Shown piece by piece: positions 2,624-43,600 of a DNA stretch of 64,000 nucleotides. The translations under genes were made by a program, and so were the position numbers. Position 1 is the stretch's first letter, and every line of letters starts with the position of its first letter. Under the pieces are notes generated by a model that did no database searches, was not told the origin of the DNA, and saw nothing but the letters and a program-made list of their open reading frames with translations. Source of the stretch: Bugula neritina (taxonomy: Eukaryota; Animalia; Bryozoa); NCBI GenBank assembly GCA_964035545.1, contig OZ037767.1:23762628-23826627 (forward strand). Reading direction: 5' to 3'.

Positions 2624-4435
2624 GCAGTTTACTAACAACTAGATCAAGTAGAGGGAGAAACCACAACACTAGAGTGACAGTCACTAATCCAGTGACAGCA
2701 AAGCCAGTCCAATCAAAAGGAGTAACATTTGTTATACCTATTTTAGCCACTCTCTTGTTCTGCACCCTTGCTCTAATTGTGACTACCACCCTCTACAGGT
2801 GAGGTCATGGAACTATTTAGTATAATATGTTCTATAATGATACTTGGTATCCATTATCCAATATAAGAAATTTGGCATCAAGACACTATACCTAGTGGTA
2901 TAATGTTTTTACGATGCACTCTAATGCACACTGCATGACTGAGTGATGTTGGGGATGATGGGTAATGTGCTGGTTTAGGTAAAAGTCTTCTCATCATAAT
3001 AAACATATCAATGTGCTCATTTTTCTGGTTTTTAGCATTAGTTTGATAACCTTGATCAGCTATGATGACAACAACATTTCCTCATCATGTTGATGGCAAA
3101 TTTACATTCTGAAGCCTAGTTCTGTATGCACATACCGCCTAGGAATGTTATAATTTAGTATATGCACGTTCATCAATTGAACAAGTTAATGAACATGGTA
3201 GAGTCATCTACAAGGTATGTTAGAAGCATTGCAATTATGCCACGGTTCCCTGTCATTATAAGTTTATGTTGTTGTTCTTAGACATGGTGTATGTAGACGG
3301 CAACCATGGAAGCAGAGGGTAATAATGAGGGTAGCTAGATACTCAAATCAACCTCCTGACCATTCACATCAAAGAACTAGTTCTAGAAAAGATACTGGAC
3401 CTAAAGGGAATAACCAGTACAGCCTCAATAGCTCTAGGCTAAAAGATTTTGAGAAAAGACTCAATAACTCTCCAACAACTAAAGCACCGTCAAATGACTA
3501 TTTTCAAGATCTTTCCTTTTCTTGCCACGAAAGGTAATGAGACATTGGCTATTACACTAATGTATGAAGATGCTATAGTTTTCGCCTGTAGTTTCAGTTT
3601 TAATGGTGAAGCAAACTTAAAGATCAGAAAAGCAACTGTTCGAATTCAAGTTTGTAATTGTTGAAGCATTATACACATGGGATTTTATATTTTCCATATT
3701 TCAATTCTTATTTTAAAATATGTAATCCGTAATGTCATAAAACAAAGTTTTAATAATTTTGTTTTTAGATCTCTTCAGACCATGGATCCAAATAACACCA
3801 ACTCACACACCTCATCAGCAAAAACTAGACGGGGATCCTTAAACTTGCCAAATTCAGTAGGTCAACTACTTCCACCACTGCGACACTCTACTGCAGATAT
3901 GTATTTCAGTGATACGTCAGAATCTACTGTAGCAGAACACGAGTTTGATCATAATGGCAGAAGGAAAAGACGCCGAATAAAACCTCTTCCCCCACTGCCA
4001 CGTCCGATAGTCTCACACAGTGAGGTCTACTTCACCGAAACTGAGACTGAGAATGACGCACCAATCAGCAGTTCTCAAAGCAGAAAAGATGATCTTCCTA
4101 AGCTGGATCCCCCACCTAGAGTTTCGCGTGATAAGCCAAGATTAAACAGGCACACTAGACAGGCTAGCAAACCATTACCTGTACATACTAAGTTTGCCTC
4201 TGAAGAGAAGACTGTGAACAATCATAACAAACAAAGCTTAGAACTAGCATTGACTAAAAGTGCAGCTAAAAAACTGGGCACCTCGCACTCTCAGGACTTC
4301 AAAGAGAGGGTAACTCACAGGCGTCCAGTAACGAAACCTCGGCCAGTGTCAAGATGTCGATCCTCCAAATCACCTGTATATGCAAATTCACATGTACTCT
4401 TAGGTAAAAACTTAGAAAATACTGACAGAGTTTAA
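2624..4435 (+). CDS. Orphan single-pass membrane protein, 3' part (5' exons not resolved)
   Basis: Phase-consistent exons 2624-2798 (TM segment VTFVIPILATLLFCTLALIVTTTLY), 3282-3533 and 3769-4435, all GT-AG. Long basic, Pro/Ser-rich disordered cytoplasmic tail. AATAAA near 4528. Confidence 0.7.
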
Positions 4436-6564: not shown

Positions 6565-6800
6565 ATTTACTTATTACATAAACTATAATACTTATAGCAT
6601 AAAGTATACTTACTTATTGCATTCACTATACTTACTCATAGCATGGACTATATTTACTTATAATATAAACTAAACTTACTTATAGCATGAAGTACATTTA
6701 CATATAGCATGGACTATATTATACTTGCTTATAGAATGGTTCATACTTAACTTACTGTATAGACTATAGAACATGAGCTATACTTATACCTATAACATTG
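6565..6800. repeat. Degenerate ~22-23 bp minisatellite (TACTTACTTATAGCATGGACTA-like)
   Basis: Roughly ten imperfect tandem copies visible. Confidence 0.7.
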
Positions 6801-14312: not shown

Positions 14313-17300
14313 ATGGAAGGACAATATAATTTACGCAGCCCTGGTTAGTGCATGTGAAATTGAAAAATTTGTTAATTGTATATAAGCATTTGGTGTTAGA
14401 TCAAGTTTAATAAATTACCAATGAGTTTGTAACGTATTAGATGTAAGCTGATTCAAGTGAAGATATATATGTTTACAATAAATATTTCATATTTATGAAG
14501 CAATTAATTTTATAAAATCACCCCAAATTTTCTGTAAAAAATATTTTGTTATTAAATTATTTCGTCATACAAACCTAAATTTTAACCAACACAATTTGTA
14601 GATGTTTTGCTGTTAATTTAGTTTGTTTTAAGCCTTAAGAAAATTTATAATATAAGTTTTCTCATAGATTTGTTTATAATATTATATTAATTGTAGCTGT
14701 TAAGCGCTTAATGAGAGAAGCTCAGGAGTTGTCTAACCCTACTGAACAGTACTTTGCTCAACCATTAGAAGTATGTGTGTTCATTTATTTGTAGTAATCC
14801 AGTTTATTGATTTTATAATAAAATTCTGCACAGATATTTTCTATTGTTTCGATTATTTGATATACAACTGTAGTTTTAACTTGTTTCTATTTTACATTAG
14901 GATAATCTATTTGAATGGCATTTTACAATTCGAGGGCCAAGTGATTCAGATTTTGACGGTGGGATATACCATGGCAGAATTATACTGCCACCTGATTACC
15001 CTATGAAGCCACCTTCTATAATGTTCCTCACAACAAATGGAAGATTTGAATGTTTCACTAAAATCTGTCTGAGCATCAGTAAACACCACCCTGAATCTTG
15101 GCAGCCCAGTTGGTCCAGTGAGTATTGACTGGTCTATGTAATCTACTTATAATCACCTTATCTAGTTTGTATCTATATAATCATCTTATCTTATGTTTAT
15201 TTTTATACTTAGCTAGTCTAGTGTGTTTCTATATAATCAACTAGTCTATATAATCAATTTATATCTACTCGTCTAGTGTGCGTCTATATAATCACCTTAT
15301 CTAGTCTGTCGGGTGTCTGTATAATCAAATTATCTAGGAAATATATGCAAAAACTAGTATAATATTTATATATACAATCTTATTTTTAGCCTCTATCTAT
15401 GCAATCAGCTATTCTAATTTGTATCTATATAATCAAGTAGTATAGTGTCTATCTATATAGGCATCTAGTCTAGCATGTGTCTATATAAGTATCTAGTCTA
15501 GTGTGTTTATATAACCAACTAGTTTGGTGTGTATTTCAGTAAGAACAGCTCTGCTGGCTATCATAGGGTTCATGCCCTCTCCTGGCCATGGTGCTATTGG
15601 CTCACTCGACTACACCCCTGCAGAAAGACAGCAACTTGCGAAAAAGTAAGAGCACCTCTTTCATCGACTCCCTACTCTTTCTCTCATCGTGGTGAAATAA
15701 ACATGACATTGAGTTCAAAACAGCAATTTTCTAACTAATTAATTTTCCCAATCAAACATAAATCTCAAACAGCTGAAGGAAACTGATTGGTAATAGACAT
15801 GTTCTATAGATAGCTAGCTATCATAGTTACTTGCTCTCTTATCTTAGTTGGAACTTTTCACTATTGCATCTTACTTGGATTACCCGGACTTTGCATTACT
15901 AAAAATGAAAAGAAAACTCCTAATTTGGAAGTATTTTTGTATGTCATTTATAAAATGAGTTCTAAAGACAAACTCTAGAATAGGAAAGAAAGTAAAGACA
16001 ATGTATCTTCATCATTTATGTAAAAGTAAATTTATTAAAGGTTATGTTTAAGGCTGCATGACATTGATGGGTTTTTTATCAAAATTTTGATTTGCTAACT
16101 CTTATCTTTATAGCCAGTGACTATGCTATACGGTTTATTGGTAAAAGGTACATTATTTCCTGATTGCATAGTCTGCAAGTTGAGATATGCACCGTATATA
16201 TATCTAGTGTGGTATTTAAAAGACATAGGAATCCACTCATTTACCACTGTTAAATGTTTATATAGTATTTGGTTGCTGTAATAGTTTTTTATACAATTTA
16301 TAACACATAAATACTAGTAAGTTGGAAGTGGAAGTTGCCCTGTAGGCAGTATGGTAAATGCAATATATGTATGTATATATATATATATATATGTATGTAT
16401 AAGTGCTCAATAAGCAGCCGTATTTGCTGTATACAGGTCAAGGACATACAAGTGTGAAATCTGTGGTAACGTGTGTGACAAAGTCTTGCCTCTCACATCA
16501 AAGTCTGAGGATTCAAGGCAGGAGATGATGGATCTTGCGGCTCAACTGTCTATGGTTGGTGAAAAGGAGAAGATATCTCGGCAGCAGGTAGTGTATATGC
16601 ATAAGATATCTCGGCAGCAGGTGGTGTATATGCATAAGATATCTCGGCAGCAGGTGGTGTATATGCATAAGATATCTCGGCAGCAGGTGGTGTATATGCA
16701 TAAGATATCTCGGCAGCAGGTGGTGTATATGCATAAGATATCTCGGCAGCAGGTGGTGTATATGCATAAGATATCGAAAGTTCGAATCTGTAGGAAATCT
16801 GCTTGTTAGTGAATGGTGACTCGCATATCTGCAAGTCATCTACAGACTGTTTAACTGTTCTTATAGAATTTCAAAATGATCATTTTTTGAATTTAGAATG
16901 TTTTAAATAGAAGAAATCTTCATTACCCTTGAAATAGTCTAAATAAATATCTATTTATATGTGACAATTTATAGCATTAACTTACCAACATGTGTGTTTC
17001 AATTTATTTAGAGAGAACTTGGTGACTGCATAGCCACTGCTCCCTCAACACCCTCAGCATCTTCTTTGAGTAACACAGCGGATCTTAGACAACGGATTAA
17101 TTCCAATAGTTCCGCAGAACCGGGTCAAGAAACCCCGGCTCCATCTACTGCACCTTCTGAGACAGCTACTGTTGCTGCTGCTAGTCCGGATTCAACTACA
17201 GCCGGGCCAGGTAACGCACCTGTTGTGGCTCACCAAGATTCCAGAAACTCGTGGGGAGATTTCATAACTTATTGGTCTCTTATTCTCATTGGTCTCAGCG

Positions 17301-18568: not shown

Positions 18569-21500
18569 ATGATACAGTGTAGGCGTCTGTTCAAGATTTC
18601 CTGTTCGACGCTTATACTTACAAGAAATAATAAACAAAGAGTACTTCAAATGTCTTCAGCTGGTAAAGATACCAAGTATAATGCTATCAAAGGAGCATTT
18701 GTGAGAGGTGACTCTACCTTCAGAAACTGGATCAAAGGTAGATTTATAACTAAACCGTACCAACAATGGCAATGTCAATAGTAGCCTACCTACTGCTTAT
18801 TGCATTGACTGTTAGATTTAAGCACAAGTTTAGAGCAACGATTCTTTGACTTGGTTTACATAATTATTTTGCCTGATTAGTCCAAAGTTTGCACGTATAC
18901 CATATTTATATATTATCTCAGCTGATGGCAGCACTCAGTTTCCACCAGAAGCTAACAGATACCATCTCTATGTTAGTTATGCCTGTCCCTGGGCCAACAG
19001 AACTCTTATTCTCAGAAGCATGAAAGGTCTGCAAAAGATAATCACTGTTGATGTGGTTGATTGGCTGCTAGACATGAGCAAAGGGTGGCAGTTTAGCCCA
19101 GAGGTAGCTATAGATAAACCTGATTCAAAATTACCCAGTTTTTAAGTGACATGAAAGATTATGTGCAATATTTCTGTTGGTTTGTTTAGCTACTTAATTG
19201 ATCGGTTCACTAAAACCAATACTGCACAAAGATCCTTTTGCATGCAGAGCATGCTAAGCTGACTTATCGCATTTACTTATAGAAAAAAGGTTGCACGCCT
19301 GATACAGTCAAAGGCTGCAAGTCTCTCAGAGGTGTCTATGGCGGGGATGGTAAGATATAATAGTTATCTTCTAGTAGAGGCCATACTGATACTGTTATAC
19401 TGTCTTAAATGCATTGGTACCAGCTATTGTCATTGTAATGTTTATTTAGAACAGGGTTAAACCGAAAGAGTGTCATAAATAGGTACCATAACAAAACCCA
19501 AAAAGTGATACCAATTCGTTTAGAACGTTTACAAGTTCCTTTGGCTAAATAAAGCTAACATAAAGAGTAATATTATTATGATGTATTTAAAAGTGCTGAT
19601 CTGATTTTCATATTAAATTGTACAATCAGAAAGTTCATGTTTTGCAGGCTACACCGGCAAGGTAAGCGTCCCTGTCTTGTACGACAAGAAGATGAATGTG
19701 ATTGTTAACAACGAGTCCAGCGAGATTCTAAGGATGTTGAACTCAGAATTTAATGACTTCTGTGAGACACCTGAACAGCGTGATTTGAACCTCTACTCTG
19801 AGTCTCTGCGGGGGAAGATAGATGCCATCAATGAGTGGATCTACCCGTAAGTCTGTATTAACGTTTACAGTGTTTACCTCCCCATCTTTCATAAAGGTAG
19901 CTGCAGTAATGGAGAAATTGAGATAGCCCAAGTTCTTTACTTTTATTATTGAATTTTTGGTTTGGGGCAAGGGTTGAAATTTTTTATTCATGTTACATTT
20001 TTAATCTGGGGCACGTGCTTTTCTCAATTTCTCCATTGCTGCACCTACCTCGTTTATTTACTCTAAGCTATTTGCATTTCTCACATTGAAACTGAATAAG
20101 ACATTTTCGCACCAGTGAAGCTCAATATACACACCGGGTAGATCACTAATGATTTGAGCCAGAAAAGACATTGTCTAATGCGCTGCTTGCAAGAAAGTAC
20201 CTAAATTTACAAAAATATGCCTCATTCATATACACCATATAATATAAAACTATAATTTTTTATGGTTCTTGAACTGTCAAACTATTTTTTACATGTTGAA
20301 GATTTATGTGCCAAATGCCAATTGGCTAATGTTCTTACATAAAATGACGGCAGTTCCAGAGTTGTTATAAATAATATATTTTTCCGCAGGTTTCAGTATC
20401 TTATGAAGTTTTACTATGTTGACTTGAAACTCATTAAAGCTGAAGTAGTGGTAACTGTTCCTCAGTCAACATGTGTTGTTTGTACAGTTCAAGTTTTCAT
20501 ATTATGTTAATAACTTGTAGAATGGTAAACAATGGTGTTTATAAGTCTGGCTTTGCTAAATCTCAAGAGGCGTATGACGCAGCAGTAACTGAGTTGTTTC
20601 AAGCACTAGACCAGGTATATATTATCATTAGACCAGGTATATGTTATTATCATTAGACCAGGTTGTGCTACTCATTCTGTACTACTCACTCTGTACTAAT
20701 CACTCTCTACTACTCACTCTCTATCACTCACTCAGTACTACTCACTTTGTACTACTCACCCAGTGCTACTAACTCTGTACTAATCACTCTGTACTACTCA
20801 GTCCGTACTACTCACTAAGTACTACTCATTCTGCACTACTCATTCTGTACTACTCACTCTGTAGGTAGAGGAAATTCTCAGCAAGAACAGATACCTTACT
20901 GGAAATAGTTTGACTGAAGCTGATATCAGGCTGTTTGTCACGCTGGTCAGATTTGATGCTGTCTACGTACTTCACTTTAAATGTAACCGAAGAAGGATTG
21001 TGGGTGAGTGGCTTGATTACACGATTACTTTAATGTTCACTCATTTTAGTAGTGCAACAGCATATTTTGGTCCAAAAATTCAAAATAACTATAACTTGTG
21101 GTATTTTGAAGTAGCTATTGGAACTAATTTATTAATATAAAGTCACTGTTAGCTATAAGTTTATAGTATGTTGTACAGTACAGGTAGAAGCGTTATAATA
21201 TACAATTTCTTAATGTTCTATTTATTTTGCATGAAGCTGTTGACTACACATGTTTATGCTGTACTATTTAGACTATCCCAACATGTGGGGTTATGTAAAG
21301 GAAATATACCAGCTTCCTGGTGTGGCCGAAACTATAAATATGGAACATATTGTTAAACACTATCATGTAAGTTTTTATCACCCTTGTACAGCATGCTTAG
21401 CGTAGGGCCACACGACGCGTTTTTACACGTTCGTGGCGTGCGAGAAAACCCATTCAGACATGCCACACACAATGCGTGTGTTGCGAGTGAGGAAATTTAT

Positions 21501-22480
21501 TAGCTAATGATGTTAGCGTTAAACTTTACTGCTCGCCTACAGGCGTTTGTTTATATAAGACTACGTCCTCGGCAAAGTGACTTTAGATATTATAAAAGCG
21601 GAAATGCATTGTGTGTGGCATGTCTGAACGGGTTTTCTTGCACGTCACCAAAGTGTAAAGCTGGTCGTGTGGCCCTACGCTTAGTGTGCGTAATAATATG
21701 CAGATAGGACTACAGCACCTGTGAATGTAAACTTTCATCCTGCTTTTAGTGTAGAATATCATATGATACAGTAAACATAGTAAACGAGTAAATGTAATGA
21801 ACTCGCACAGCACCAGATCTCTTGGTAACTCGTTACTTCCTTATTCACTGTACCATTTATTAGCCCCTCAAAGGATAAGCTGATTGGCGCACTTATAATA
21901 ACAAGCCTATCTCTACTCAGAACTGATAGCTTTCATCATTATGTCTCTATGAATGTTAGTGCCGAAACTAAACAATCCCACCATTTCTGTATAAAACACA
22001 TTACTATGTCATTATACAATGACATAGTGATGTCTGCATTAACAATTCTATTTTTGATATACCAAATGACATACCAAACATTTTACTCATAGACACCACA
22101 ATGAATATTGACTGTTTTGTTGTGTAAAATGCCAGTATAATAGTAAAATAACTAGTAGCCTAAGCTGGTATTTGCTTTTTCATATCAGTATTTGCTTTTG
22201 ATGTTTGCTTTTAGTATCTTAAAATATCATAGAAGTATAATTCATAAATCTAAAGCATCAGTTTATAAGTATATAAAATGCAGTGTACCAATACTGTATA
22301 TAAACTGTATATATACTGTGTATAAACTGTATATAAACTGGATATATACTGTATATATATGACCTGTATAATTCCTAGTATACTTTGTAGATGAGTCACC
22401 CTTCTATCAACCCGTTCAGAATTGTTCCCATAAATCCTATAATTGACTTCAATGAGAAACATGGCAGAGATCAACTCTGA
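18569..22480 (+). CDS. Glutathionyl-hydroquinone reductase (GST Xi/omega-like; YqjG/ECM4/PcpF family)
   Basis: Exons 18569(or 18650)-18737, 18922-19103, 19283-19349, 19648-19846, 20521-20614, 20865-21003, 21272-21366, 22391-22480. Motifs [91 protein letters not shown]. Confidence 0.93.
19895..20050. mobile_element. Small MITE-like inverted-repeat element
   Basis: ~33-bp imperfect TIRs AGGTAGCTGCAGTAATGGAGAAATTGAGATAGC / GCTTTTCTCAATTTCTCCATTGCTGCACCTACCT. A related, decayed right arm lies at ~36091-36117. Confidence 0.65.
20606..20864. repeat. Triplicated donor (TAGACCAG|GT) followed by a 14-bp minisatellite (TACTACTCACTCTG) filling the intron
   Basis: GT at 20615, 20637 and 20662; the 14-mer array runs up to the acceptor at 20864. 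Confidence 0.85.
21400..21680. mobile_element. MITE, probably PIF/Harbinger (Tourist-like)
   Basis: Termini GCGTAGGGCCACACGAC / GTCGTGTGGCCCTACGC, imperfect inverted repeat extending ~75 bp, TTA duplication on both sides (21397-21399, 21681-21683). Confidence 0.85.
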
Positions 22481-25200: not shown

Positions 25201-28200
25201 ATGCTGCGAAATGCTGGATTTGCCGTGGCATCAAGCCTGAAGAAAACTTTCGCAGTTACTGCCGATCCAGCCACAGCGGCCATCACATCAAATGTCAATG
25301 TGATGCAAAAAGCAGCTTACCACGAGAACGTAAGGATTTTAACAAAAACTAGTTGTAGTATTAGTAAACAAATATAGTTCATTACTTAAATAAAAGGAGG
25401 ATGATTATGATCTTCATTATATCGATTATCAGAGTGAGAGTTACTTACTCTTAGTCTTAGAGTTACCGTTAGTGATACTCTGAGATGATACTGAATAACT
25501 GATACTGATAGGGATAGTTAATGTCATTGTCACTATCATAGTGATACTCTGATGACTGATAGTGATACAGATACTGTTGGGTAATGTGAATGCCATACTC
25601 ATACTGATCTGAGTGTGATACTCAATCTTGTAGTAATTTGTGCAATTACTGAGCGTGAGTTATTTACTTGCGTATAGTTAGCTGGTTATTCTGTTATCAA
25701 TTACTAGGGTAGCTGTCGAGTAATTATATTTATTATCCACAATAAAGCATAAAACAAACATCACATCAAATTATCCTATACAAGAGTCAACTACTAACAC
25801 ATGTTACTACTACAAGCCTCCGCTTACAACAACGTGATATAATGTTAATAACCCGGGAAGTGTCACGTGAATCGGAAGCATATCTTCCGGAGCTGCTAAT
25901 TGGTTGCTACATAAGGGTCTAAGTATTCCAAGAGTAGGGAGAGGGCGATTCCTGTATTTGTACTTGCACTACTCACTACACCGTCCCCCCCAGCAGAAAG
26001 CCCTACTTTCTGATAACACAATAAAAAAACATAATGAAAAACCATACAATAATCCAAAAAGAAAAACATATATAAGTAAACCCACAAAGAGTAAGAAAAG
26101 AAATAGTTGAGCACGACAACGTTTACATTAGAAGACAACAGGGTGATCGATCACACACATCTAGTCAGCTATTAAGAGAGAGGGTGCTTACCAGCACGCG
26201 GGCCAATGTCGGAGCGCTCGTCACATTCCAAACGAGTATCGCTCAACGAAGGTGCCTACCCCAGGCATTCTCATTGGTTGGGCTCTGATTCTTGTAGCGA
26301 CCGTGCTCGGTGTCGAGCCTGTCGGGCACGTAGCCGCCTCTTCAATCGCCCCACTGAGTCCTTCAACTGGTATAGACCTGTCGTCGTATCCAGCAGGTCA
26401 GGGGCAAGTTGTGTGAACTCGGCTTGTAGTCTTATAAGCCGCTCTTCTACGTTAGCCAGCTGGCTAGGCCTTGGTGGGGTTGTAGTGGTCTCCGTTAGAG
26501 GGGATATGGTTGTTTCTTTTACTTCTGGGGTGTTGCTAGGGTTGACGGGGGTAGGAGGTGGGCCCTGAACCATAGGGGACTTATGGCGGGCAGATAGTAG
26601 CAGTACGTGAAACCCTGACGTTAGTGCGGCCAGGGTGATAGCCTTCCTGATGACTGGCTTGCTGGCATCCAGGTATAGGGGGAAACTGTCTTCATCAACA
26701 GTGTGGTTCTCTCCGGCGAAGCAGCTTAGTTTATGTACTGTCACGGGATACGGGTAGACGTCGTGGAACCCGCAGGGACAGAAGTGGAGTAGGAAATGGG
26801 CGTCTACATGTAAACGCAGGGAGCGGTGTGACGGGCACTCCTCAAAGCAGACCTGGCAGGTTCGGTGTGGTCCACTGGGTCCCCAGGCTTCTTCAATTCT
26901 CCTCTCTGTCGTGGGTGACACCCAACGGTGTCGTCGGCGGAGCACTACGGGTATGCCATTCTCCATTACAGGCTCTTCTTTCATAGACAGAGAGGTTGGC
27001 TGGTCCCGTGACCGGGAGGTGGTCACTCGAGTGTGATCTGAAAGAGTAGCAGTGTTAAAGATTATACACTGAGGCACCGTCGGCGTGTACAGCCTGACCG
27101 GTACTCTGTTCAGTTACACTCGTGAGATTCAGGCTAATGAATAGTTGATGGAGAACACACTCGCTATGGCAGATTATTTAAAATCAAAGTCGACGTGTAT
27201 TCCCACCACTGTTTATCATTATCGAATCTCCAGCTAGCTAGTGTAGCTAAGCTGACTGATGCAGTCTAGTTATCGTACCAAAAACATAATTAACTCACCC
27301 TTCGATCCAGAATAGTAAGACATTTTGGAATGAGAGTGGTAAATGATTACTGTTTACTGGTACGTCTACTCTCGACTGCATCAACATAGGAAAAGACCGG
27401 ACAGCGTGGTTGTGAAACGTGACTAGGGCTTTTTACTTCCAGCGGATGAATCTCGTGTGAGATTCCGCCGAGGCAAAAGTTGAGATTTTCGTGGTGATCA
27501 CAACTCCCACGGCTCTTTGCCTGTTTTCCCATGCAAGGCCTCTCTAGACTTTCGTTACTGCCGCTTATACCGCGGTCACGTACACAGTCTCTGAGACACG
27601 CTGGAAGTTGCCTAGTGTGTGGTCCTGGTCCTATGTTGGTATCTCCTTGCGGAGCCCCTCCCACGGGGGGTTTTTGCACTTCCGGACCTGTTTCTGGTTC
27701 CGGAAGTGGTGATGATGGCAGGCTTGACGTTGGGGGCGGTGAGCGCACTTTCAAGGACGGAAGTGGCCTTTCTCGCCTCGCCAAGTCTTCCTGACGTGTC
27801 ATGGAGGTGTTTCCGGCCAGGTTGACAGTCTCCGCCTGCCGAGACCTTCTCGCACAATGCGTCTGCCGCCCCGCTTCACCAGGGAGACGGCTATGCTTGT
27901 TGGTCTGGCAGACTTTGCACCGTCTCACTCTGCGTCGGATATCCCGTTCCATGTTAGGCCAGTACCACCGGAGTTGTAGCTTGGTGACCACCCCTTGGAC
28001 TCCTCCGTGAGTCTCCTCGTGGGTGTCTTGTATCAACTTCCGGCGGATGGCAACTGGGCAGACAACCCTCTTCCTGGCTGGCTGTCTGCTGTTGGCGGCC
28101 AAGGTCATGGTTAGCAGACCATCTGGCCCGACCCGCAGAGAGCTCCAACGTTGACAGTACAGCCGTAACTCGGCGCATCCCTGTCGCCGTTGTGTACTAC

Positions 28201-31200
28201 TGGGTCGTCGCCCTTCCTGTTTCGCTCGGTACACGTCGGCTACCACCCCAGGAAGGCATTCCTGGAGCTTCGGCAGCTCCCTAACGTTACCAGCCCATAC
28301 AGGTTTGGCGCGGAGGCTCTGGGCAGCCTCCGGGGGCGTGTCAGCCCTCTGTTGGAGTAGCTGAGCAGGGGCGGTCCTCGCCGCCCGTGGTACCTCACGG
28401 CAGCCTGCTCTATTTAGGCGGGCTCCGTGGTCTGTGTGGCTGAACGCCTCACTGTACCCATGTGGCAACCTAGCCATAGCCTGGCGCTTCCCGTTGCCTG
28501 TGCAGCCACGCGTCCCTGGAGGAGGGGAGGCGTGGGTTGGGACGGTCCTCCGCCCTCGAGACGGGCTCTGCTGAGGACCTTCCGTCGTAGCTCCCGACGA
28601 CGGCCCAATGGCTTCCTCCTGGACAGGATGGAAGCGACCCAGCATGGATCTGGGTGGTAGGTCTACTGTCTCTGAGAAGGGGTTGACACACTGCACTGAG
28701 ATCTCTCCTTGTCCCGTAAGCCGGCTAAAGCTATGGGCAAGTTGGACTCTCGAGTGCGTACTTTCGACAACTCCCAGGTTTGGCCACCGTCTACCTTGCA
28801 GCGGACGGTAGCCCGGGAGTGGCCTGGTATAGTACAGCTCCGTACTACCTGCACTGCTCCCGCTAGAGGACGACCAAACTTATCGACACAAGCGAGCTCC
28901 TTGTCGCCCATGATCATCGCAGATTTACTGAAATCGATGCGACAACCGTGTCGTTGTAAGAATGGCATCCCGAGGATAGCATCCTCGTTGAGCTGCCCGA
29001 CGATAAACGTCTCTTGGATGGCCTGGTTACGGACGTAACCAGTTAGCTCAATAATGCCGTAGAAGGGAATGCATGACCCGTCTGCCAGGGTGCCATGATC
29101 CCCCTCATACGGTGCCAACCTGTCCTTGACCTTAGCGCTGAGGGTGTCAAAGAACTGACGGCTAAGGAGGTTGGTGGTGCAGCCTGAGTCCAGGAGGAAG
29201 TTGGCAGGCTTGCCGGCTAGCTTTCCTGGTAGGAAGTAGCTACTTCCGTGTGGCTGCAATTGTGTGTGCCGTGGTTGCACCTCCCTCGCTGTGGGTCGAG
29301 GGGTCCACGGTTGGCGGCGACTATTGACCAGCTGCCGAGGTTGGGGCGGTACGCCTTGCGGCGCCTGTACCGTTTCCCTCGCAGGCTCTGTGGTCAACCG
29401 TCTGCCGGTTCCGTGTTGGTGCCGGAGTGGCGTAGAGGACCCAGGTGGCGAGTGGCTGGAGCCTACTTGCCACGGGGGTCGCCACTTCACAGCATCTCCG
29501 CGCGGCGCCCAGCGGGGCGACAGACGCGCGGGCCTCCCTGGGTGATTCACAGACGGCCCGCAGGAGGTGGGAACATCTGCGGGCCGTGGTAGTTTAACCC
29601 TTGTGGGAGCTGAGGGCAGTCTCTCTGGAAATGTCCTGGCCTTCCGCATTCCCAGCAGAAGTGGTGCCCCATGCCTGGTGATTGTACCTGCGGCCCGCTA
29701 GGCTCACGGGCAGTATCTACCTGGCTTGGGGAAGCTAATGTGGTGACCAGTTTATCTAGCATGTCAGTCATCTGTGAGATTTTTGACGCTAGTGACATCT
29801 GGTTCACATTAGCCACCGCGGAGGGTTCCCCGTCTAATTCGGCGTGAGCAGTAGAGTGCTCCGTGGTCACCTGGCGGGAGGCCACGCGGTTGCGGTGCAT
29901 ATGAGTCGCCAAGAGGTAGGCTTCTCCCACCGCAAGTGCATCTTCGACTGTGGTGACTCCCCTCGCTTGGAGTTGATGGTGGAGCCCCAAGTCGTTGATG
30001 GACTGCACGAAGGCATCATAAGTATACCTCTCACGGTGTACCGGAGGCAGATCGCGGAATGCAATCTGCGCTAGTGGGTACACCGTGGCAGCGTGCTCTT
30101 CTAGTGACGTGTGAGGATCACGCCGCATCCTCTGTAGACGGGCCCGCGCATCTATGGGAGAGATGCCAAAACGGGCCCGCAGGGAAGCAAAGATTCCGTC
30201 TATGTCAGGTCCCGCTCCGTACGGCTTAGCTTTGCCCGTCAGCGCCATCCTGAGCTTGAGCAGCGCCACCCTTGGCGGCCACTCTGAAATCTCCATCACA
30301 TCTTGGAATATTTGGATAAACTGCTCCACTGCTTCTTCGCCTGCGAAGGTGGGCGCCTTCATCCGGTATCTGTCTTCACCATACTCTCTAAGAATTCTCA
30401 CTTCTTCATCTAACACCACTGGTTCCACAGGTATATCAACATTATCTCTCTCACCTTCATTCAGTGGAATGGGTAGCTCCGTGCCGTCTTCTGCCATGAC
30501 TGCTATACGCAAGATCCCACCGCTGCCACCACTGTAGTAATTTGTGCAATTACTGAGCGTGAGTTATTTACTTGCGTATAGTTAGCTGGTTATTCTGTTA
30601 TCAATTACTAGGGTAGCTGTCGAGTAATTATATTTATTATCCACAATAAAGCATAAAACAAACATCACATCAAATTATCCTATACAAGAGTCAACTACTA
30701 ACACATGTTACTACTACAAGCCTCCGCTTACAACAACGTGATATAATGTTAATAACCCGGGAAGTGTCACGTGAATCGGAAGCATATCTTCCGGAGCTGC
30801 TAATTGGTTGCTACATAAGGGTCTAAGTATTCCAAGAGTAGGGAGAGGGCGATTCCTGTATTTGTACTTGCACTACTCACTACAATCTTATTAACTTTAA
30901 GCCATAGTGGTGGTAATACTTATAGTAATAGTCATGCTCATAGTGATACTATTACTATTAGTATTACTAATACTAATAGTAATACTGCTAGTGCTAGTGA
31001 TAATCATACTTGTACTGATGATCCTACTAATAGTGATTCTCTGGTACTGGCAGTGCTACTCAATCTAAATCTCATACTCACAGTCAATGTCATAATGAAA
31101 ATGATGCACTTGAAAATAATCTAAATCTTGGAGTATTGAATTTAATAATGGTTATACTTATAGTTAGTGATAAGTAGAAGTACAACATTGAAATTGGTAC

Positions 31201-37624: not shown

Positions 37625-40600
37625 CTATGTTGACTCGGATGATAGCACTTGACTAGTGACCGCCATTTCACTAATCTCAGCGGTAGACTGAGGTAACTTT
37701 TCAGGCTGTGTAGGCGACACTGATTGGCTAGAGTCCGTAGTACCTTCCTGTTCTGTAGATGACTCACTGTGCTCATCTGTTAAACAAACCACACTCTTTA
37801 TTGCTCACTTTTATATAATAATTATAATGATAAACACTTGTAACATATGTGGATATAAGTCTATCAGATCTTACATTACAATAGCTATACTGCACTGGCA
37901 CACACTAAACCCTGTGCTAGTATTTTCATCACAAAAATAACATCTTTATATAATCTTTCTAGAATCTAAGATACATAGCAAATACTGTGTACTCACTAAG
38001 CTCAAGGTAGATAACTAAATACCTGTAACCATGACTACATACACCATATGTTATGTGAATAGACAATATCAATATATGTTATAATCTCAAACACCTTTGG
38101 TAGACTTTTCAACTGGAACAGATTCAGCTAGTTCTGGTTCCGTTGAACTTTGACCTATGGCTTCAGTGCAAACCGATGAAGGTTCATCAGTTGAACTTCC
38201 CGTCACCTGAAATTAAGAATATTTCAGCATTAAGTCACTGTTACCATAGCAACTGCTTCAGTGATAAACACTGAATATAAGTCATACATGAACTGCACAG
38301 TGAGTGTACATATTACAAATGCTAGGTAGTACATTGTTGGACATCTGTAACATGTGATGTGTTTCTACAAAAGTACAATACCTGTTTGCCACTGGAGCTC
38401 CCGTTGACTGCCTCCAATGAGCCATTTTGTTGTTGATTCTCACAAGAAACACCTTCAGGAGATTGAGCACCTGTTGCTGCTGATTGGGTTGGGGTGGCTG
38501 AGCCCTCACCATTAGCTCTACTTTGTAAAGCACGGCAAAGACTCTCTAACTGCCTATTCTTTTTTGTCTAAACACAGAAAAAGAGCACAACTATATTACA
38601 ACCTTCTGTATGTGTAAGCAGCACCTCAGGTCTATCCCCTCAGGTCTATCCAGAAACTCAACTGGCCCAAACTATCAACTTAATAAGTAAATAATTCAAA
38701 TACCAACTGGCTATATGATCGAGTAACATCACTGAGAGTTTTAACTAAAGGTTATAGTACAACTCTGTATTTATGATTATATTATAACATCGTGAGGCTC
38801 TAACTACCACCCACACTATCCACAGATCTTATTTAGAACACACAGTAGCTGTAGAGATCATTGAGAACATACAGTAGCTGTAGAGATCATTGAGAACATA
38901 CAGTAGCTGTAGAAATCATTGAAAATAGACAGTAGCTGTAAATCTCAATGAGAACACACAGTAGCTGTAGATCTCATTGAGAACACAGAGTAGCTGTAGA
39001 GATCATTGAGAATACACAGCACATGTAATATTGAACAGGACAGACCTGCGTATCAATAAGCTTTTCATGGAGAGTCTTCTGTTCCACCATCTCCACCAGG
39101 GCTCTGTTGGTGTTCTCGTACCTCTGTTTGTACATCAGTGACTCTTTCTCCAACTTCCTTATCTTCTTAGACATCTGAAGGAAAGAAAACATCAATTGAG
39201 TAATACAAAGACTTCACACATGAGAATATCCACTTATATTTCAACACATACAGGTACATCATTACAGGCAGAACACAACAGATATTTGTACCTTCTCCAT
39301 TTCACTTTTGAAGGCAGCAAACACCTCGTTGCTCTTATTCAATGTGGTTTCAAACTCGGCATATTTCTGCGTGTATATCTGCAGCTGGGTCTTGAGGTGA
39401 ACCTCTGTCTGCGCCATGGCTTCCTGTGTTGTCTTACTTTCTATTAGTTTCTCCAGAAGCTGCAATACACCACGGTAACCATGGTAACCAGTGAGACAGA
39501 GGAGATAACCAACAGTATAAACACATGCCCAAATTAGTTAGTATGCAGAGTAAATTATACTTCAACTATTCAGTTTTGTGCAGAATAGACTTAGTGAGTC
39601 AGTCCAGTGTGAGTTACTGACTGCGATAAATTGAGAATCCCAGCTTAATTTTAAGATATTTTAATCATTAAAAAGCTTGAGGCTCCAAGAATTTAATCAA
39701 CGCAGTGTTTTGCACACTGCAAGCAGATATTTTCCGATGTAGGAAGACAAATATGTTTAGAACAATCGTCAAGGTACTATTCGACCTTATGCCGTTCATA
39801 TATGCTGGTGTTCATTTAATATTTGCATATCTAATTAATAGGTATATTCTTGTAAATGGTAATATAAATTATAAATTTTAAAGAATAAGCAAAAGAAGTT
39901 TACATAACTTTCATAACACTGAAGTTTCTGCAATGGCATTGTTGAAGTATCATAGAAGTGTTACTGCAGCCAATTTTAGACTTCAAAGTAAAAATTACAG
40001 AAGATCTTAAAACAGATAGCACTGAGGTGTGTAGACACAGTATACAGAGAAGCTGTCCAACACTTACACATGCCAATGGCATGTACACACTATGCTTAGA
40101 CCTTTATCTCCGGTACACACTGAAATGATTAAACGTTGCCATAAGGAAAGTACAGCTTATTTCCATATCAGTATTTGTTACTCATCAATATCATTACTAG
40201 CTCACCGCTAGGGATAATTAGTTAATTAGTCATTATCGTTAATATCATTGTAATGATGATTATTAATGATGACACCATGGCCTACATGCCTACCAGATAT
40301 GTATGTAGCTTAGTAACCTGCAAGATAACTGAATATATAATTGCAGCAGCATAGCTAAAGCATTACACAAATAAAATAAACTCGTCACATTTCACTGCAC
40401 ATAAACCTCTCTGAAACTATGAGAGTTTAATTATCCTTTGGGAGAGATAAATATACAGAATAGCCTACACAATGATAGCATCTCCGGATATTTTAGAATA
40501 ACAAATCATCCAAGAAAGTTGTAAATGGGAGCCTTTTGAAAGGCTTCAATGCAAAAAGTAAAAAATCAACTGAAGATTCCGTGTTGACAACTTTGCAATA

Positions 40601-43600
40601 TATTCCAAAGTTGGGCTTCTAAACAGACAATCCTCACGTATCTTAATCACGCCACAAATTAACAAACCTAATATCTTAAGCCACATAAAAAGAAAGCAAA
40701 ATGAACGGCATGCGCAGGAGAAGGGGCTGTGAAACTCGCATCACAACTGTGTTGGCAGTGGGTATATTATGCTGCCTCAGACAGACCAGTAACTATGAAA
40801 CTCATGCATAAAGGAAAGAGCTAAAAACATAGGGCTACGCCAACCAACCATTTGCTTCTCCGCACCGGCTTTTTCCTGCTCTTTCTCGAGGATCAGCGTA
40901 CACTGACCAATCTTGGCTTCCAGCAGCTGCGTCTCCAAGTCTTTCTGTTGTAACAACTTCTGAATGTGCTACAGAGAGAAACAGTATTGTATTACATTGC
41001 ATAAGGAACAAAAGAAGTCCAGTATGTATTACTGTAGTAATAACACAGTAACAGTATGTATTACTGTAGTAATAACACAGTAATAGTATGTATTACTGTA
41101 GTAATAACACAGTAATAGTATGTATTACTGAAACAACAAAAAAGACACAGAAAACCATATGCAGCTGTAGCAGTGAACATCGAAGATATAAATAAACTAT
41201 GGTTGGCTTGACTTCTAATTTACCTCTTCACGTTTTTCATATTCTTCTAGAAGTGTATGAAGTTTACCAGTCAGTTCTTTGTTATCTTCTTGTAGTTGGT
41301 CATTTCTCTTACTGTGGGTTTCCATTTGGGTCTGTATGTCTCCAATAGTAGTCTACAAGTATACAGTATAATATACTATACTGTCTGTCTGTCCCCTATA
41401 GTAGTCTACAAGTATACAGTATAATATACTATACTGTCTGTATGTCCCCTATAGTAGTCTACAAGTATACACAGTATAATATACTACACACATTATATAT
41501 TGCTATTTCTCCTTAGTGTACTCGTATATTGAGCCTAATGTTAGCATAAACCTATCAGCCAAAACTTGACAAGAATGCTATAGCTCCAAGACTTGTTTAA
41601 TCATGCTTCACTTCCCAGTATTGTTTTTGATGACATTTCCCATATTTTTGTCAGTCTAGTCAAATATGCCAGTAGTGTATTGGACAGTGGCTAATGTATC
41701 TACACTTTTGGTAATAACCCTCTCAGTTTCATCATTTCTATCACTAATAAAATAGTTAACGTTCTCTGTCTCATCACCCATCTTGATGCTATCATTCTAT
41801 TTAGACATGTATTCAGATGCTTGCAAAAAGCTCATTTTCAAAATTATTTCATTACCTGCTTGATTAGCATTTCATCAGCTGTCACTTTTTCCTTTCCTTA
41901 ATCAATAAGATCACTATTCGTAATTATCATATACTACCCTACCATGGCAACCGTTGCTATGGTGAATTTACTGAGAGGAGGCCTAAATAATTCAACCTAT
42001 AAAACTACTGAAAACAGTAAAAGTTACCTGAAACCGATTAGACACTTCTTTTCTCCTTTCTTCATCTTCCCTTTGCCTTGCCATGCTCTCTTCCTATAAT
42101 AGTCATATAGCTTGTACTAAATGGAGTATAACGTGACAAAACAGCACAAGTTACGCACTCTAAGCTAGCAAGTATACGGTTAGGGAGATTTCACTGCTTT
42201 ACTAGAATAACAGCAGTTAACGCTATACCTTTACTAATTTGGTGAACAAGACAGTTTTATTCAGCAACAATAATCCAGAGACAGCATTTTACTGTTAGTA
42301 GGAAACAGTGAAACCACTAATTCGACTAGCAGTTTCTATGTTTAAAGCTGCAGATATAAGTTCTGAAAATAACAAGTTACTTTATAATATAAATCTAGTT
42401 TTATGAGATCAGAGCTGACATAGTTAAACAAAAAAACAACTATTTAGCATTTCTAATCCTAATAAAACTGAAACTTGTTAGTTCTAGTATAAATATTGGC
42501 TCAGTTACCATCCTAAGTGCGGTTAACCTGAATATGAACAATCGGAAGAGTGTTGAACTAGGACTGTAGGTGTTGAACAAGCGGACTGTAGGTGTTGAAC
42601 TAGGACTGTAGGTGTTGAACAAGCGGACTGTAGGTGTTGAACTAGGACTGTAGGTGTTGCTATACCTTGACCACTTTGTTGTGTCGCTGAAGTTCGCGGC
42701 ACAGATTTTCCAGTTTACTTTTGGCCAGAATGAGTTTAGAATTCTCAGTCTGCAGGCTGTCCCTCTCTCTGCTCACTGTGCTCAGCTTCTTGGCATTACT
42801 CTTCACAGCAGACGCATGTTGCCTGTTCTCATCTAGCAGGTCGGTGTACTTCTTACAGAGGGCTGCCAGCTTCTCCTCAGGTGTAGAGAGAGAGCTTAGT
42901 GCCCGGAGGACATAATCTACAGCATAAGTATTGTTAGTTCTACACAGCACACACATCTCACTACACAACACACACATCTCACTACACAGTATACACATCT
43001 CACTACACAGTATTTACAGAACTACTACACAGTATACAAAGACTCGCTACACTATGCTAAAATTGAGTAAATGCAGTAAACTGGATGTAGAAAAAGCTCC
43101 ACAATATTAACCAGAGCCTAACACTCTGTAAGCTCTACCAGCTTATAGCACACAAAATAGTTTGTATACTAACCCATATTTCTGTCTTCTCTTTTCTTTA
43201 TTTTTCTCTCAATAGCGGCTGTTAAAACTTGCTCCTTTTTAACAGCAGCAGTATTTAGATCAGGCCTGGGAGAGCTTTCTTTAGAGGAATCTGCTGTGCA
43301 AACAGTACGACTTGCATTTTATAAAAACCTTTTTAGAACATAGTAACAAGCAGAGCCTAGCTTTCAAGTTTTAGCTCTTGAGAAATATATTGCTAATATT
43401 AAAATGTATCATACTGTAAAAGTAGGCCATGAAGCCTTCAATTGACTAACTTATACACAAAATAAAATGAAAAAAACATAGCATAGCTTATTGGCAGCAT
43501 ATCTATGCTGTCGAAACTATATGTACATAAAATTTCTAGATCCAATCTCGTTAATCCTTGCTAAACCATAATTGGAAAATTTTCAAGTATTAGGCACTAA

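What the first reader, a model, noticed from the sequence alone, without database searches (positions are those of the whole stretch)
26271..27323. LTR retrotransposon carries an intron-containing zinc-finger/leucine-zipper/Arg-rich accessory gene in the env position
Seen: 23 nt after the pol-remnant stop is a mini-exon ATG TCT TAC TAT TCT GGA TCG AAG G|GTGAGT, preceded by Inr-like TCATTT/TCATTC. A 261-nt AT-rich intron ends in TTTAAC...CTACTCTTTCAG and joins in phase to a 255-codon exon; the ORF track misses this and starts at a GTG inside the intron. The ~263-aa product has a canonical C-X2-C-X12-H-X3-H finger, a C-X-C-X12-H-X3-C finger, a Pro/Thr linker, seven hydrophobic residues in exact heptad spacing (L-L-F-L-L-V-L, ~26459-26333) and [13 protein letters not shown]. 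It has no signal peptide or TM, so it is not Env. Known: a sense-strand intron survives reverse transcription only if unspliced genomic RNA is packaged, and complex retroviruses use spliced Arg-rich regulators (Rev, Tat) to control export and transcription. Inference: this is a dimeric nucleic-acid-binding regulator (Rev/Tat-like, anti-silencing, or integration-targeting), kept intact while RT was lost. It is the best candidate for an undescribed system here.
Basis: partly seen in the sequence, partly recalled or inferred. Interest (0 to 1): 0.9.

Follow-up and report, generated by a model that had tools for sequence, protein, structure and literature searches.

The report
Spliced zinc-finger gene in Gypsy retrotransposons
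A young jumping gene that has lost its copying enzyme still carries, where retroviruses keep their envelope gene, a conserved intron-containing gene for a two-zinc-finger, coiled-coil protein of an unnamed family, which likely acts as the element's own transcription switch, much as Tas does in foamy viruses.

Summary
A 5.26-kb Gypsy-type element (identical 352-bp LTRs, gag, protease, no RT) carries a third gene in the env slot. One contig of public run X1 (RNA or DNA unknown) skips exactly the predicted 261-nt GT-AG intron. It is kept in 47 of 50 gag relatives, and one relative (P0013) is already joined that way, as in CERV of Cer1. A 125-nt hairpin is predicted to hide the mini-exon donor in full-length RNA. 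The protein has 133 close relatives, with fingers, zipper and basic tail conserved (75-82%) and the linker not (36%). It belongs to a wider unnamed family (acidic N-terminus, C2H2 + CxC finger pair, terminal coiled coil) that includes bryozoan annotated genes. Function is untested: I favour a Tas-like DNA-binding activator (0.4) over CERV/Rev-like RNA export (0.25). The scan noted a similar C2H2 third ORF in a sea-urchin Gypsy element; kinship untested. New variant of a known kind.

The parts
30533..30884 (-). 5' LTR, 352 bp, TG...CA, identical to the 3' LTR; 4-bp target-site duplication ATCT outside both LTRs
30514..30531 (-). primer-binding site (tRNA-Leu-like; the tRNA identity is recalled, not tested)
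   Evidence: sequence
29547..30497 (-). gag, 316 aa, one CCHC knuckle
   Evidence: PF00098, E 8e-6; 118 relatives
30455..30497 (-). gag leader = alternative first coding exon of the third gene (43 nt, phase 1, donor at 30454; would skip 3417 nt to the acceptor and give 269 aa)
   Evidence: donor 8 of 9; G/S-E motif in 47 of 50 gag N-termini against 9.0 in shuffles; relative P0013 is leader joined to exon 2
28663..29697 (-). ORF with aspartyl protease (about 29229-28960), in a frame overlapping the end of gag
27347..28879 (-). pol remnant, open for 510 codons, in another frame than the protease ORF; integrase H2C2 finger (about 28057-27890) only; no RT, RNase H or integrase core
27258..27382 (-). 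predicted long RNA hairpin (48 pairs with p > 0.5) that encloses the mini-exon and pairs its ATG and donor
   Evidence: (z -4.55, 0 of 200 shuffles as stable)
   Evidence: joint
27038..27298 (-). 261-nt GT-AG intron; its acceptor is shared by both donors
   Evidence: S or L before the first D of exon 2 in 32 of 33 relatives
26271..27037 (-). exon 2 of the third gene: Trp-containing helix, C2H2 finger (26858-26796), CxC-H-C finger (26780-26721), helical region, Pro/Thr linker, coiled coil (26459-26331), Arg-rich tail (26339-26301)
25981..26270 (-). T-rich 3' untranslated region (290 nt) ending in a polypurine tract (about 25991-25981)
25629..25980 (-). 3' LTR with one AATAAA (25734)

Best explanation
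The element is a young Gypsy-type LTR retrotransposon without reverse transcriptase whose third, spliced gene encodes a conserved two-zinc-finger, coiled-coil protein that likely oligomerises and likely binds the element's own DNA to switch on its transcription, as Tas does in foamy viruses. Shown: the element's anatomy; two in-phase donors and one acceptor; a joined form for each route (mini-exon in one X1 contig, gag leader in relative P0013); domain-wise conservation; linkage to this gag family. Predicted: in LTR-started RNA a 125-nt hairpin hides the mini-exon ATG and donor, so the small intron mostly survives into genomic RNA, while the gag-leader donor gives an env-style subgenomic mRNA; an RNA starting inside the hairpin's 5' arm would free the mini-exon donor. 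Inferred: an internal promoter near 27340; nuclear location; DNA binding by the basic helix of finger 1; activation by the acidic N-terminus; oligomerisation by the coiled coil; the Arg-rich tail as nuclear signal or second nucleic-acid contact; a feed-forward loop in which a little protein from the internal start activates the LTR. The element would borrow RT and integrase from autonomous kin and keep the gene because it raises the output of packageable RNA. The gene itself is real with about 0.95 confidence; the value below is for the activator mechanism.
For: Splicing: 1 of the 10 skip joints shown has CT..AC ends and it matches both predicted boundaries; acceptor signature in 32 of 33 relatives; P0003 (68% identical) begins at the donor GTG and implies a 265-nt intron; gag donor motif in 47 of 50. 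Selection: identity to 120 relatives is 0.75 and 0.79 in the fingers, 0.81 in the coiled coil, 0.82 in the basic tail and 0.36 in the linker; metal ligands 86-99%; 5 of 8 listed differences inside domains are synonymous against about 0.31 expected. Linkage: 7 of 25 ORF3 hits on contigs of 4.5 kb or more share an exact contig length with a gag hit, chance mean 0.23. DNA-binding activator: the family profile matches classical C2H2 fingers of HIC2, SALL3/4 and ZBTB proteins (best E 5e-6); helix positions 2, 3 and 5 are basic in 88, 72 and 74% of 74 proteins; N-termini are net acidic in 33 of 39 distant relatives, 22 with a strongly acidic, hydrophobic 30-mer; a coiled coil follows in 34 of 55 against 2.0 expected; AlphaFold gives one long helix at 192-250. 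Hairpin: donor unpaired probability 0.06 in long RNA, 0.25-0.29 when RNA starts at 27346-27325; its 3' arm is the best kept intron block in P0003 (10 of 13 residues against 3-8). Precedent: Tas is made mainly from an internal promoter, binds DNA and activates that promoter and the LTR (PMC13220597, passages).
Against: No functional data at all. The window's own N-terminus is short and not acidic (exon-2 residues 1-30 net 0; close family mean -2.2; the gag leader adds -4). C2H2 fingers also bind RNA and proteins (established knowledge), and two fingers give little sequence specificity. The joint rests on one contig with 29 letters on the short side, laid at 85% likeness and marked 'between: not known'; it is absent from X4, X5 and X6, and the gag-leader joint is not among the 15 joints shown of 123. 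No relative among 120 starts with a mini-exon peptide. The internal promoter rests on 2 of 4 TCAKTY words that are also the donor's pairing strand. Even without the 5' arm the donor stays mostly paired (0.25-0.29), gag windows fold as strongly (z -5.6 and -7.3), and no covariation test was possible. Relatives are kin, so the counts are not independent. Gypsy linkage of the distant family rests on three proteins only (P0353, P0376, P0382).
Confidence: 0.4

Rival explanations
1. CERV/Rev-like export factor: the protein binds the unspliced genomic RNA, perhaps at the 27382-27258 hairpin, oligomerises on it and licenses its export or blocks its splicing.
For: Same layout as CERV: env slot, spliced mRNA, N-terminus shared with Gag, a zipper and a cysteine finger (PMC10309623, sections 4, 9, 15). 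Genomic RNA keeps two donors and one acceptor. Arg-rich tail kept at 82%. A structured, conserved RNA element lies in the retained part.
Against: Finger 1 is a classical C2H2 of the transcription-factor type, whereas CERV's is a candidate C4 loop. Acidic N-termini in the wider family are not explained. Leucine-rich export-like motifs fall inside folded regions (73-83, 135-147). The hairpin alone could protect the small intron.
Confidence: 0.25
2. Anti-silencing or chromatin factor: the fingers bind element DNA and the coiled coil recruits or titrates host chromatin or piRNA-pathway proteins, so that the family stays transcribed.
For: Fingers plus coiled coil suit an adaptor. Retention in a lineage without RT fits a cis- or family-wide benefit. 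Fast-changing low-complexity linkers in the wider family.
Against: No enzyme or chromatin-reader domain in Pfam for the window protein, 44 close or 82 further relatives. Hard to tell from plain activation without experiments.
Confidence: 0.15
3. Integration-targeting or particle-associated factor that tethers the cDNA or integrase to chromatin, or helps RT-less RNA enter helper particles.
For: DNA-binding-type fingers and an oligomerising helix; the gag-leader form shares its first 14 residues with Gag.
Against: The window element lacks an integrase core, so it would act on a borrowed enzyme. The shared leader is very short. Acidic N-termini are unexplained.
Confidence: 0.1
4. A captured host transcription-factor fragment that rides along without benefit.
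For: Annotated bryozoan genes carry the same domain, and the tree gives no direction of transfer.
Against: Domain-wise conservation across copies down to 49% identity, kept splice signals and kept reading frames.
Confidence: 0.04

Closest known systems
CERV of Cer1, C. elegans Ty3/Gypsy element (PMC10309623; abstract, sections 4, 6, 9, 15 and passages read)
   Same: [quoted passage not shown]
   Different: CERV is 517 aa with five exons, H, M and G domains and a candidate C4 loop, has no homologues outside nematodes per the paper, and sits in an element with full pol. This protein is 263-269 aa with a C2H2 + CxC-H-C pair and a C-terminal coiled coil, has a second mini-exon, and sits in an element without RT. 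Sequence or fold likeness to CERV was not tested (no CERV sequence on hand).
Tas (Bel-1) of foamy viruses (PMC13220597, passages; PMC7828637, passages)
   Same: Accessory gene 3' of the structural genes; Tas is made mainly from an internal promoter, binds DNA and activates that promoter and the LTR through an acidic domain. Proposed here as the working analogy.
   Different: Retrovirus, not Gypsy; Tas has a C-terminal activation domain; no sequence or fold match to Tas appeared. Internal promoter and activation are unproven here.
Spliced env of insect errantiviruses, idefix subclade (10.1101/2023.08.03.551782, passages)
   Same: Third ORF spliced to a short Gag peptide in a subgenomic transcript: the same logic as the 30454-27037 splice.
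   Different: Those ORFs are F-type envelope glycoproteins; this protein has no TM helix and no Env match.
Non-Env ORF3s of bdelloid LTR elements (PMC5408684; abstract and passages)
   Same: Diverse third ORFs in the env slot of invertebrate LTR elements, said to be typically expressed from spliced messages.
   Different: Those are Env-like, GDSL esterase or DEDDy exonuclease; 'zinc' does not occur in the main text.
Uncharacterised bryozoan proteins XP_067944745.1, XP_067940963.1/64.1 (Watersipora subatra), KAF6040922.1, KAF6040923.1 (Bugula neritina)
   Same: True homologues of the finger-pair domain (E 4e-35 to 1e-5 for their cluster representatives), several with a terminal coiled coil.
   Different: Annotated as host genes, 416-644 aa, some with two copies of the domain; no function known; whether they lie inside retroelements was not checked.

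Membership tests
Ty3/Gypsy LTR retrotransposon | Two LTRs with TG...CA ends, target-site duplication, PBS and PPT | tested here: met
   352-bp identical LTRs, ATCT duplication, PBS and PPT
Ty3/Gypsy LTR retrotransposon | gag, protease, then RT-RNase H before integrase | tested here: inconclusive
   gag knuckle, Gypsy-type protease and Integrase_H2C2 lie in that order, but RT and RNase H are absent. Gag relatives run into RT_RNaseH (P0177) or rve (P0236).
Autonomous element | Intact RT, RNase H and integrase core | tested here: not met
   No Pfam match at E up to 1; no likeness to P0177 or P0236; relative P0229 has the same gap
Env / errantivirus envelope | Signal peptide, fusion peptide and TM anchor | tested here: not met
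   Highest 19-mer hydropathy 1.43; no Env family in Pfam
Classical C2H2 zinc-finger proteins | C-X2-4-C-X12-H-X3-5-H with the conserved leucine | tested here: met
   Finger 1 pattern, ligands 86-98% kept; family profile hits solved C2H2 proteins, E 5e-6. The window protein itself stays below Pfam cut-offs.
bZIP | Basic region N-terminal to the leucine zipper | tested here: not met
   The basic stretch follows the heptads (233-245 after 193-235); no bZIP Pfam match
CERV-like export factor | Env-slot ORF spliced to a Gag-shared N-terminus | tested here: met
   Donor at 30454, P0013, motif in 47 of 50 gag relatives; joined form seen in a relative, not in this copy
CERV-like export factor | Homology to the CERV H, M, G domains | not tested
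   No CERV sequence or model on hand
CERV-like export factor | Required for export of unspliced genomic RNA | not testable with these tools
   needs experiments
Tas-like transactivator | Expressed from an internal promoter | tested here: inconclusive
   Two TCAKTY words within 25 nt of the ATG, 4 in the element; no RNA 5'-end data
Tas-like transactivator | DNA-binding domain plus acidic activation domain | tested here: inconclusive
   C2H2 with basic helix; acidic N-termini in 33 of 39 distant relatives but weak in the window's own protein
Tas-like transactivator | Activates the LTR | not testable with these tools
   needs reporter assays

The most novel reading that the evidence does not exclude
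A widespread, unnamed lineage of invertebrate Gypsy elements encodes its own zinc-finger transcription factor in the env slot and runs a foamy-virus-like circuit: a mini-exon from an internal start makes the activator first, an RNA hairpin locks that exon away in genomic RNA, and an env-style splice from gag makes a second, more acidic form. RT-less members keep the switch and so out-express their helpers, and hosts such as bryozoans have exchanged the domain with these elements.
Probability: 0.2. Interest if true: 0.85.

Novelty: new variant of a known kind. Interest (0 to 1): 0.62.

Why it matters
Regulatory accessory proteins are a mark of complex retroviruses; for Gypsy elements my searches found one characterised case, CERV, which acts in RNA export. 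A second, unrelated-looking and much wider family built on C2H2 fingers would show that LTR retrotransposons gained trans-acting regulators more than once, and possibly a self-encoded transcription factor. It also offers a small, testable answer to how a sense-strand intron survives reverse transcription (a donor hidden in a hairpin), and gives a lead for uncharacterised bryozoan genes. The tests are cheap: RT-PCR, 5' RACE and reporter assays with one 263-269-aa protein.

Tried and rejected
No whole genome is held for the window, so copy number, dN/dS on DNA and covariation of the hairpin could not be done. Scans for DNA loci found nothing: metagenome contigs with ORF3 and gag alignments, viral contigs, genome contigs. 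The one locus returned (L001) is a chance match in a bacterial contig whose main ORF is an unrelated enzyme on the other strand; rejected. No RNA holder listed, which says nothing on expression; runs X2 and X3 were never laid, so no habitat is claimed. The complex predictor was not available, so oligomer formation was not modelled. AlphaFold models are weak (mean pLDDT 64.7 whole, 60.8 finger domain with the fingers under 50); Foldseek gave no match at E up to 0.001 in PDB or viral structures, and VIA-align gave only generic helices (best Z 6.1; 3.5): no fold assignment, and no proof of a new fold. ESM Atlas gave unnamed clusters and C2H2 families only. Rfam: no match in the element. No homology between ORF3 and gag. 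Pfam ATG16 (E 0.047) is a generic coiled-coil hit. The quick tree of 81 finger domains leaves 38 of 78 inner branches open and gives no direction for host-element exchange. Summed contig depth was not used as copy number. Literature searches with no paper on this family: 0 papers; listings only, no matching title; Repbase and most subscription journals are not covered, and no supplements were read.
Full report
The element. The finding lies in a 5,256-bp element on the minus strand, between two identical 352-bp LTRs (30884-30533 and 25980-25629) with TG...CA ends and a 4-bp target-site duplication. Identical LTRs mean a recent insertion. A primer-binding site follows the 5' LTR and a polypurine tract precedes the 3' LTR. 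Gag (316 aa) has a CCHC knuckle; a protease ORF follows; a 510-codon pol remnant holds only the integrase H2C2 finger. RT, RNase H and the integrase core are absent. Gag relatives that run into RNase H (P0177) or integrase core (P0236) show that fuller elements exist in the family. The loss is older than this copy: P0229, with 77% gag identity, has the same gap in nearly the same place.

The observation. The intron is 42% GC against 56% in exon 2.

Splicing of the small intron. Laying four public runs on the element gave a joint from 27037 to 27299 that skips 261 letters with CT..AC ends, in one contig of run X1. It is the only one of the 10 skip joints shown with such ends, and it hits both predicted boundaries. 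Limits: one contig, 29 letters on the short side, 85% likeness, 'between: not known', 108 joints not shown, not seen in X4, X5 or X6, and X1 is not on record as RNA or DNA. If X1 is DNA, the joint is a reverse-transcribed copy of spliced RNA. Protein relatives agree: of 120 listed relatives, 33 have gene calls that reach upstream of exon 2, and the residue before the first Asp is Ser or Leu, as a YAG acceptor demands, in 32 (one search counts 27 S, 4 L, 1 E, 1 P; the P is a pattern slip in P0063, which reads L-S-D). P0003, 68% identical, was called from the donor's GTG and implies a 265-nt intron.

A second first exon. The 33rd relative, P0013, begins with the Gag leader joined directly to exon 2. 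In the window the matching donor is at 30454, 43 nt into gag, in phase 1 like the mini-exon; these two are the only sites in the element with 8 of 9 donor matches. The donor is read as Gly-Glu or Ser-Glu in the gag frame. That pair is kept at the expected place in 47 of the 50 gag relatives (of 118) whose call includes the N-terminus, also where the leader has otherwise diverged; 43 have Gly-Glu; shuffles give 9.0, at most 19. One of the 47 (P0218) is probably chance, and the proteins are kin. This is the splice that idefix-type errantiviruses use for env (10.1101/2023.08.03.551782, passages) and resembles CERV, which shares its N-terminus with Gag (PMC10309623, section 9).

A hairpin over the mini-exon. 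RNA folding gives a long stem-loop from 27382 to 27258, 48 pairs with probability over 0.5, z -4.55 with 0 of 200 shuffles as stable; in a scan of 51 windows across the element it is one of three below -5.5, the other two lying in gag. It pairs the mini-exon ATG and donor; the Inr-like words lie in the pairing strand. The donor's unpaired probability is 0.06 in long RNA (lowest 6% of 9-mers) and 0.25-0.29 if RNA starts at 27346-27325; the ATG goes from 0.07 to 0.23-0.60. The 3' arm is the best kept intron block in P0003 (10 of 13 residues in an arbitrary frame, others 3-8). This is a prediction found after the fact, with one relative and no covariation test. It offers a protein-free reason why the intron survives in genomic RNA.

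The gene is under selection and tied to this gag. There are 133 relatives at E up to 0.001, the 120 listed all unnamed. Identity to the window protein is 0.70 in the helix before the fingers, 0.75 and 0.79 in the fingers, 0.60 in the helical region, 0.36 in the linker, 0.81 in the coiled coil and 0.82 in the basic tail; the eight metal ligands are kept in 86-99%. Of the 16 exon-2 differences among the 40 shown (of 656), 5 of 8 in domains and 3 of 8 elsewhere are synonymous, against about 0.3 expected; the sample is small. P0096 joins the same kind of pol tail to ORF3. Whether elements with RT also carry the gene is unknown.

A wider family. A profile search of 1.84 billion representatives gave 125 hits; many of the weaker ones match only the Trp helix and finger pair. 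Six Cys/His positions are invariant across 43 diverse members. In 55 distant proteins (some near-duplicates) a coiled coil follows in 34, against 2.0 expected under my simple heptad score. Among 50 hand-picked distant proteins, N-termini of 40 aa or more are net acidic in 33 of 39 and C-terminal parts net basic in 35 of 42. The family profile matches classical C2H2 fingers of HIC2, SALL3/4 and ZBTB proteins (best E 5e-6) and, weakly, GCN4-type coiled coils. Of 20 distant clusters looked up, 4 hold named proteins, all uncharacterised bryozoan proteins. They fall at several unresolved places in a quick tree, so capture and domestication cannot be told apart. Only three distant proteins hint at a Gypsy setting (the integrase-tail motif is recalled). 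Structure models are weak and gave no fold match beyond a long C-terminal helix.

How it most likely works. An acidic N-terminus, a C2H2 finger with a basic helix, a coiled coil and a basic tail are the parts of a small transcription factor. With a possible internal start and an LTR-derived splice, the layout recalls foamy-virus Tas, which is made mainly from an internal promoter, binds DNA and activates that promoter and the LTR (PMC13220597, passages). I give this 0.4. The CERV/Rev-like export role gets 0.25: same gene layout, retained donors, Arg-rich tail and a structured RNA, but a different finger type. Anti-silencing gets 0.15, targeting or particle roles 0.10, a passenger 0.04. Against my choice: the window's own N-terminus is short and neutral, C2H2 fingers can bind RNA, and nothing functional was measured.

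Novelty. Extra ORFs in the env slot are common and mostly unexplained (PMC10309623, section 4; PMC5408684, abstract and passages), and CERV is a described spliced regulator, so the kind is known. My ten literature searches found no paper on this finger-pair family, on two alternative first exons for such a gene, or on a hairpin-gated donor; Repbase, most subscription journals and all supplements were out of view. The scan's own notes hold a sea-urchin Gypsy element with a C2H2 third ORF and another with a spliced zinc-knuckle ORF (e1-8075350, e1-7496323); sequence look-ups found no look-alike, so kinship is untested. Verdict: new variant of a known kind, interest 0.62.

Noticed in passing
window 29885-30184 (minus strand, inside gag): The most stable RNA folding in the element (z -5.6 and -7.3 in 200-nt windows); a candidate packaging or dimerisation signal.
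   Followed up: no
window 27347-28879: The pol remnant stays open for 510 codons although RT, RNase H and the integrase core are gone; relatives P0229 and P0096 show the same kind of remnant. Why it stays open is unexplained.
   Followed up: partly
window 28663-28879 and 29547-29697: The protease ORF overlaps the end of gag in another frame, and the frame changes again between protease ORF and pol remnant in this copy.
   Followed up: no
window 27119-27500 and 25973-26163, runs X5 and X6: Summed contig depth is far higher over the intron, mini-exon and 3' UTR than over exon 2. It may mean short conserved non-coding blocks; the tool warns against ranking by depth.
   Followed up: no
proteins P0376, P0382, P0353: Distant family members that begin with a motif like the tail of Gypsy integrase (recalled) or carry a short post-protease pol peptide (E 0.003): hints that the distant family is also Gypsy-borne.
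   Followed up: partly
proteins P0256/P0371, P0367, P0300: Two tandem copies of the finger-pair domain; the Bugula genes EB796_000763 and EB796_000764 have consecutive locus tags.
   Followed up: partly
window 21422-21659: 54-nt inverted repeat, 91% complementary, 130 nt apart: MITE-like.
   Followed up: no
window 16537-16800, 20635-20900, 38784-39056, 40989-41144, 41330-41488, 42550-42675, 6589-6742: Minisatellites with units of 33, 14, 29, 32, 53, 42 and 22 nt.
   Followed up: no
window 59524-59850 (+): ORF with an IQ calmodulin-binding motif at the Pfam cut-off (E 4e-4); possibly a host exon.
   Followed up: no
window 3665-4435 (+): 256-codon open frame with no Pfam match.
   Followed up: partly
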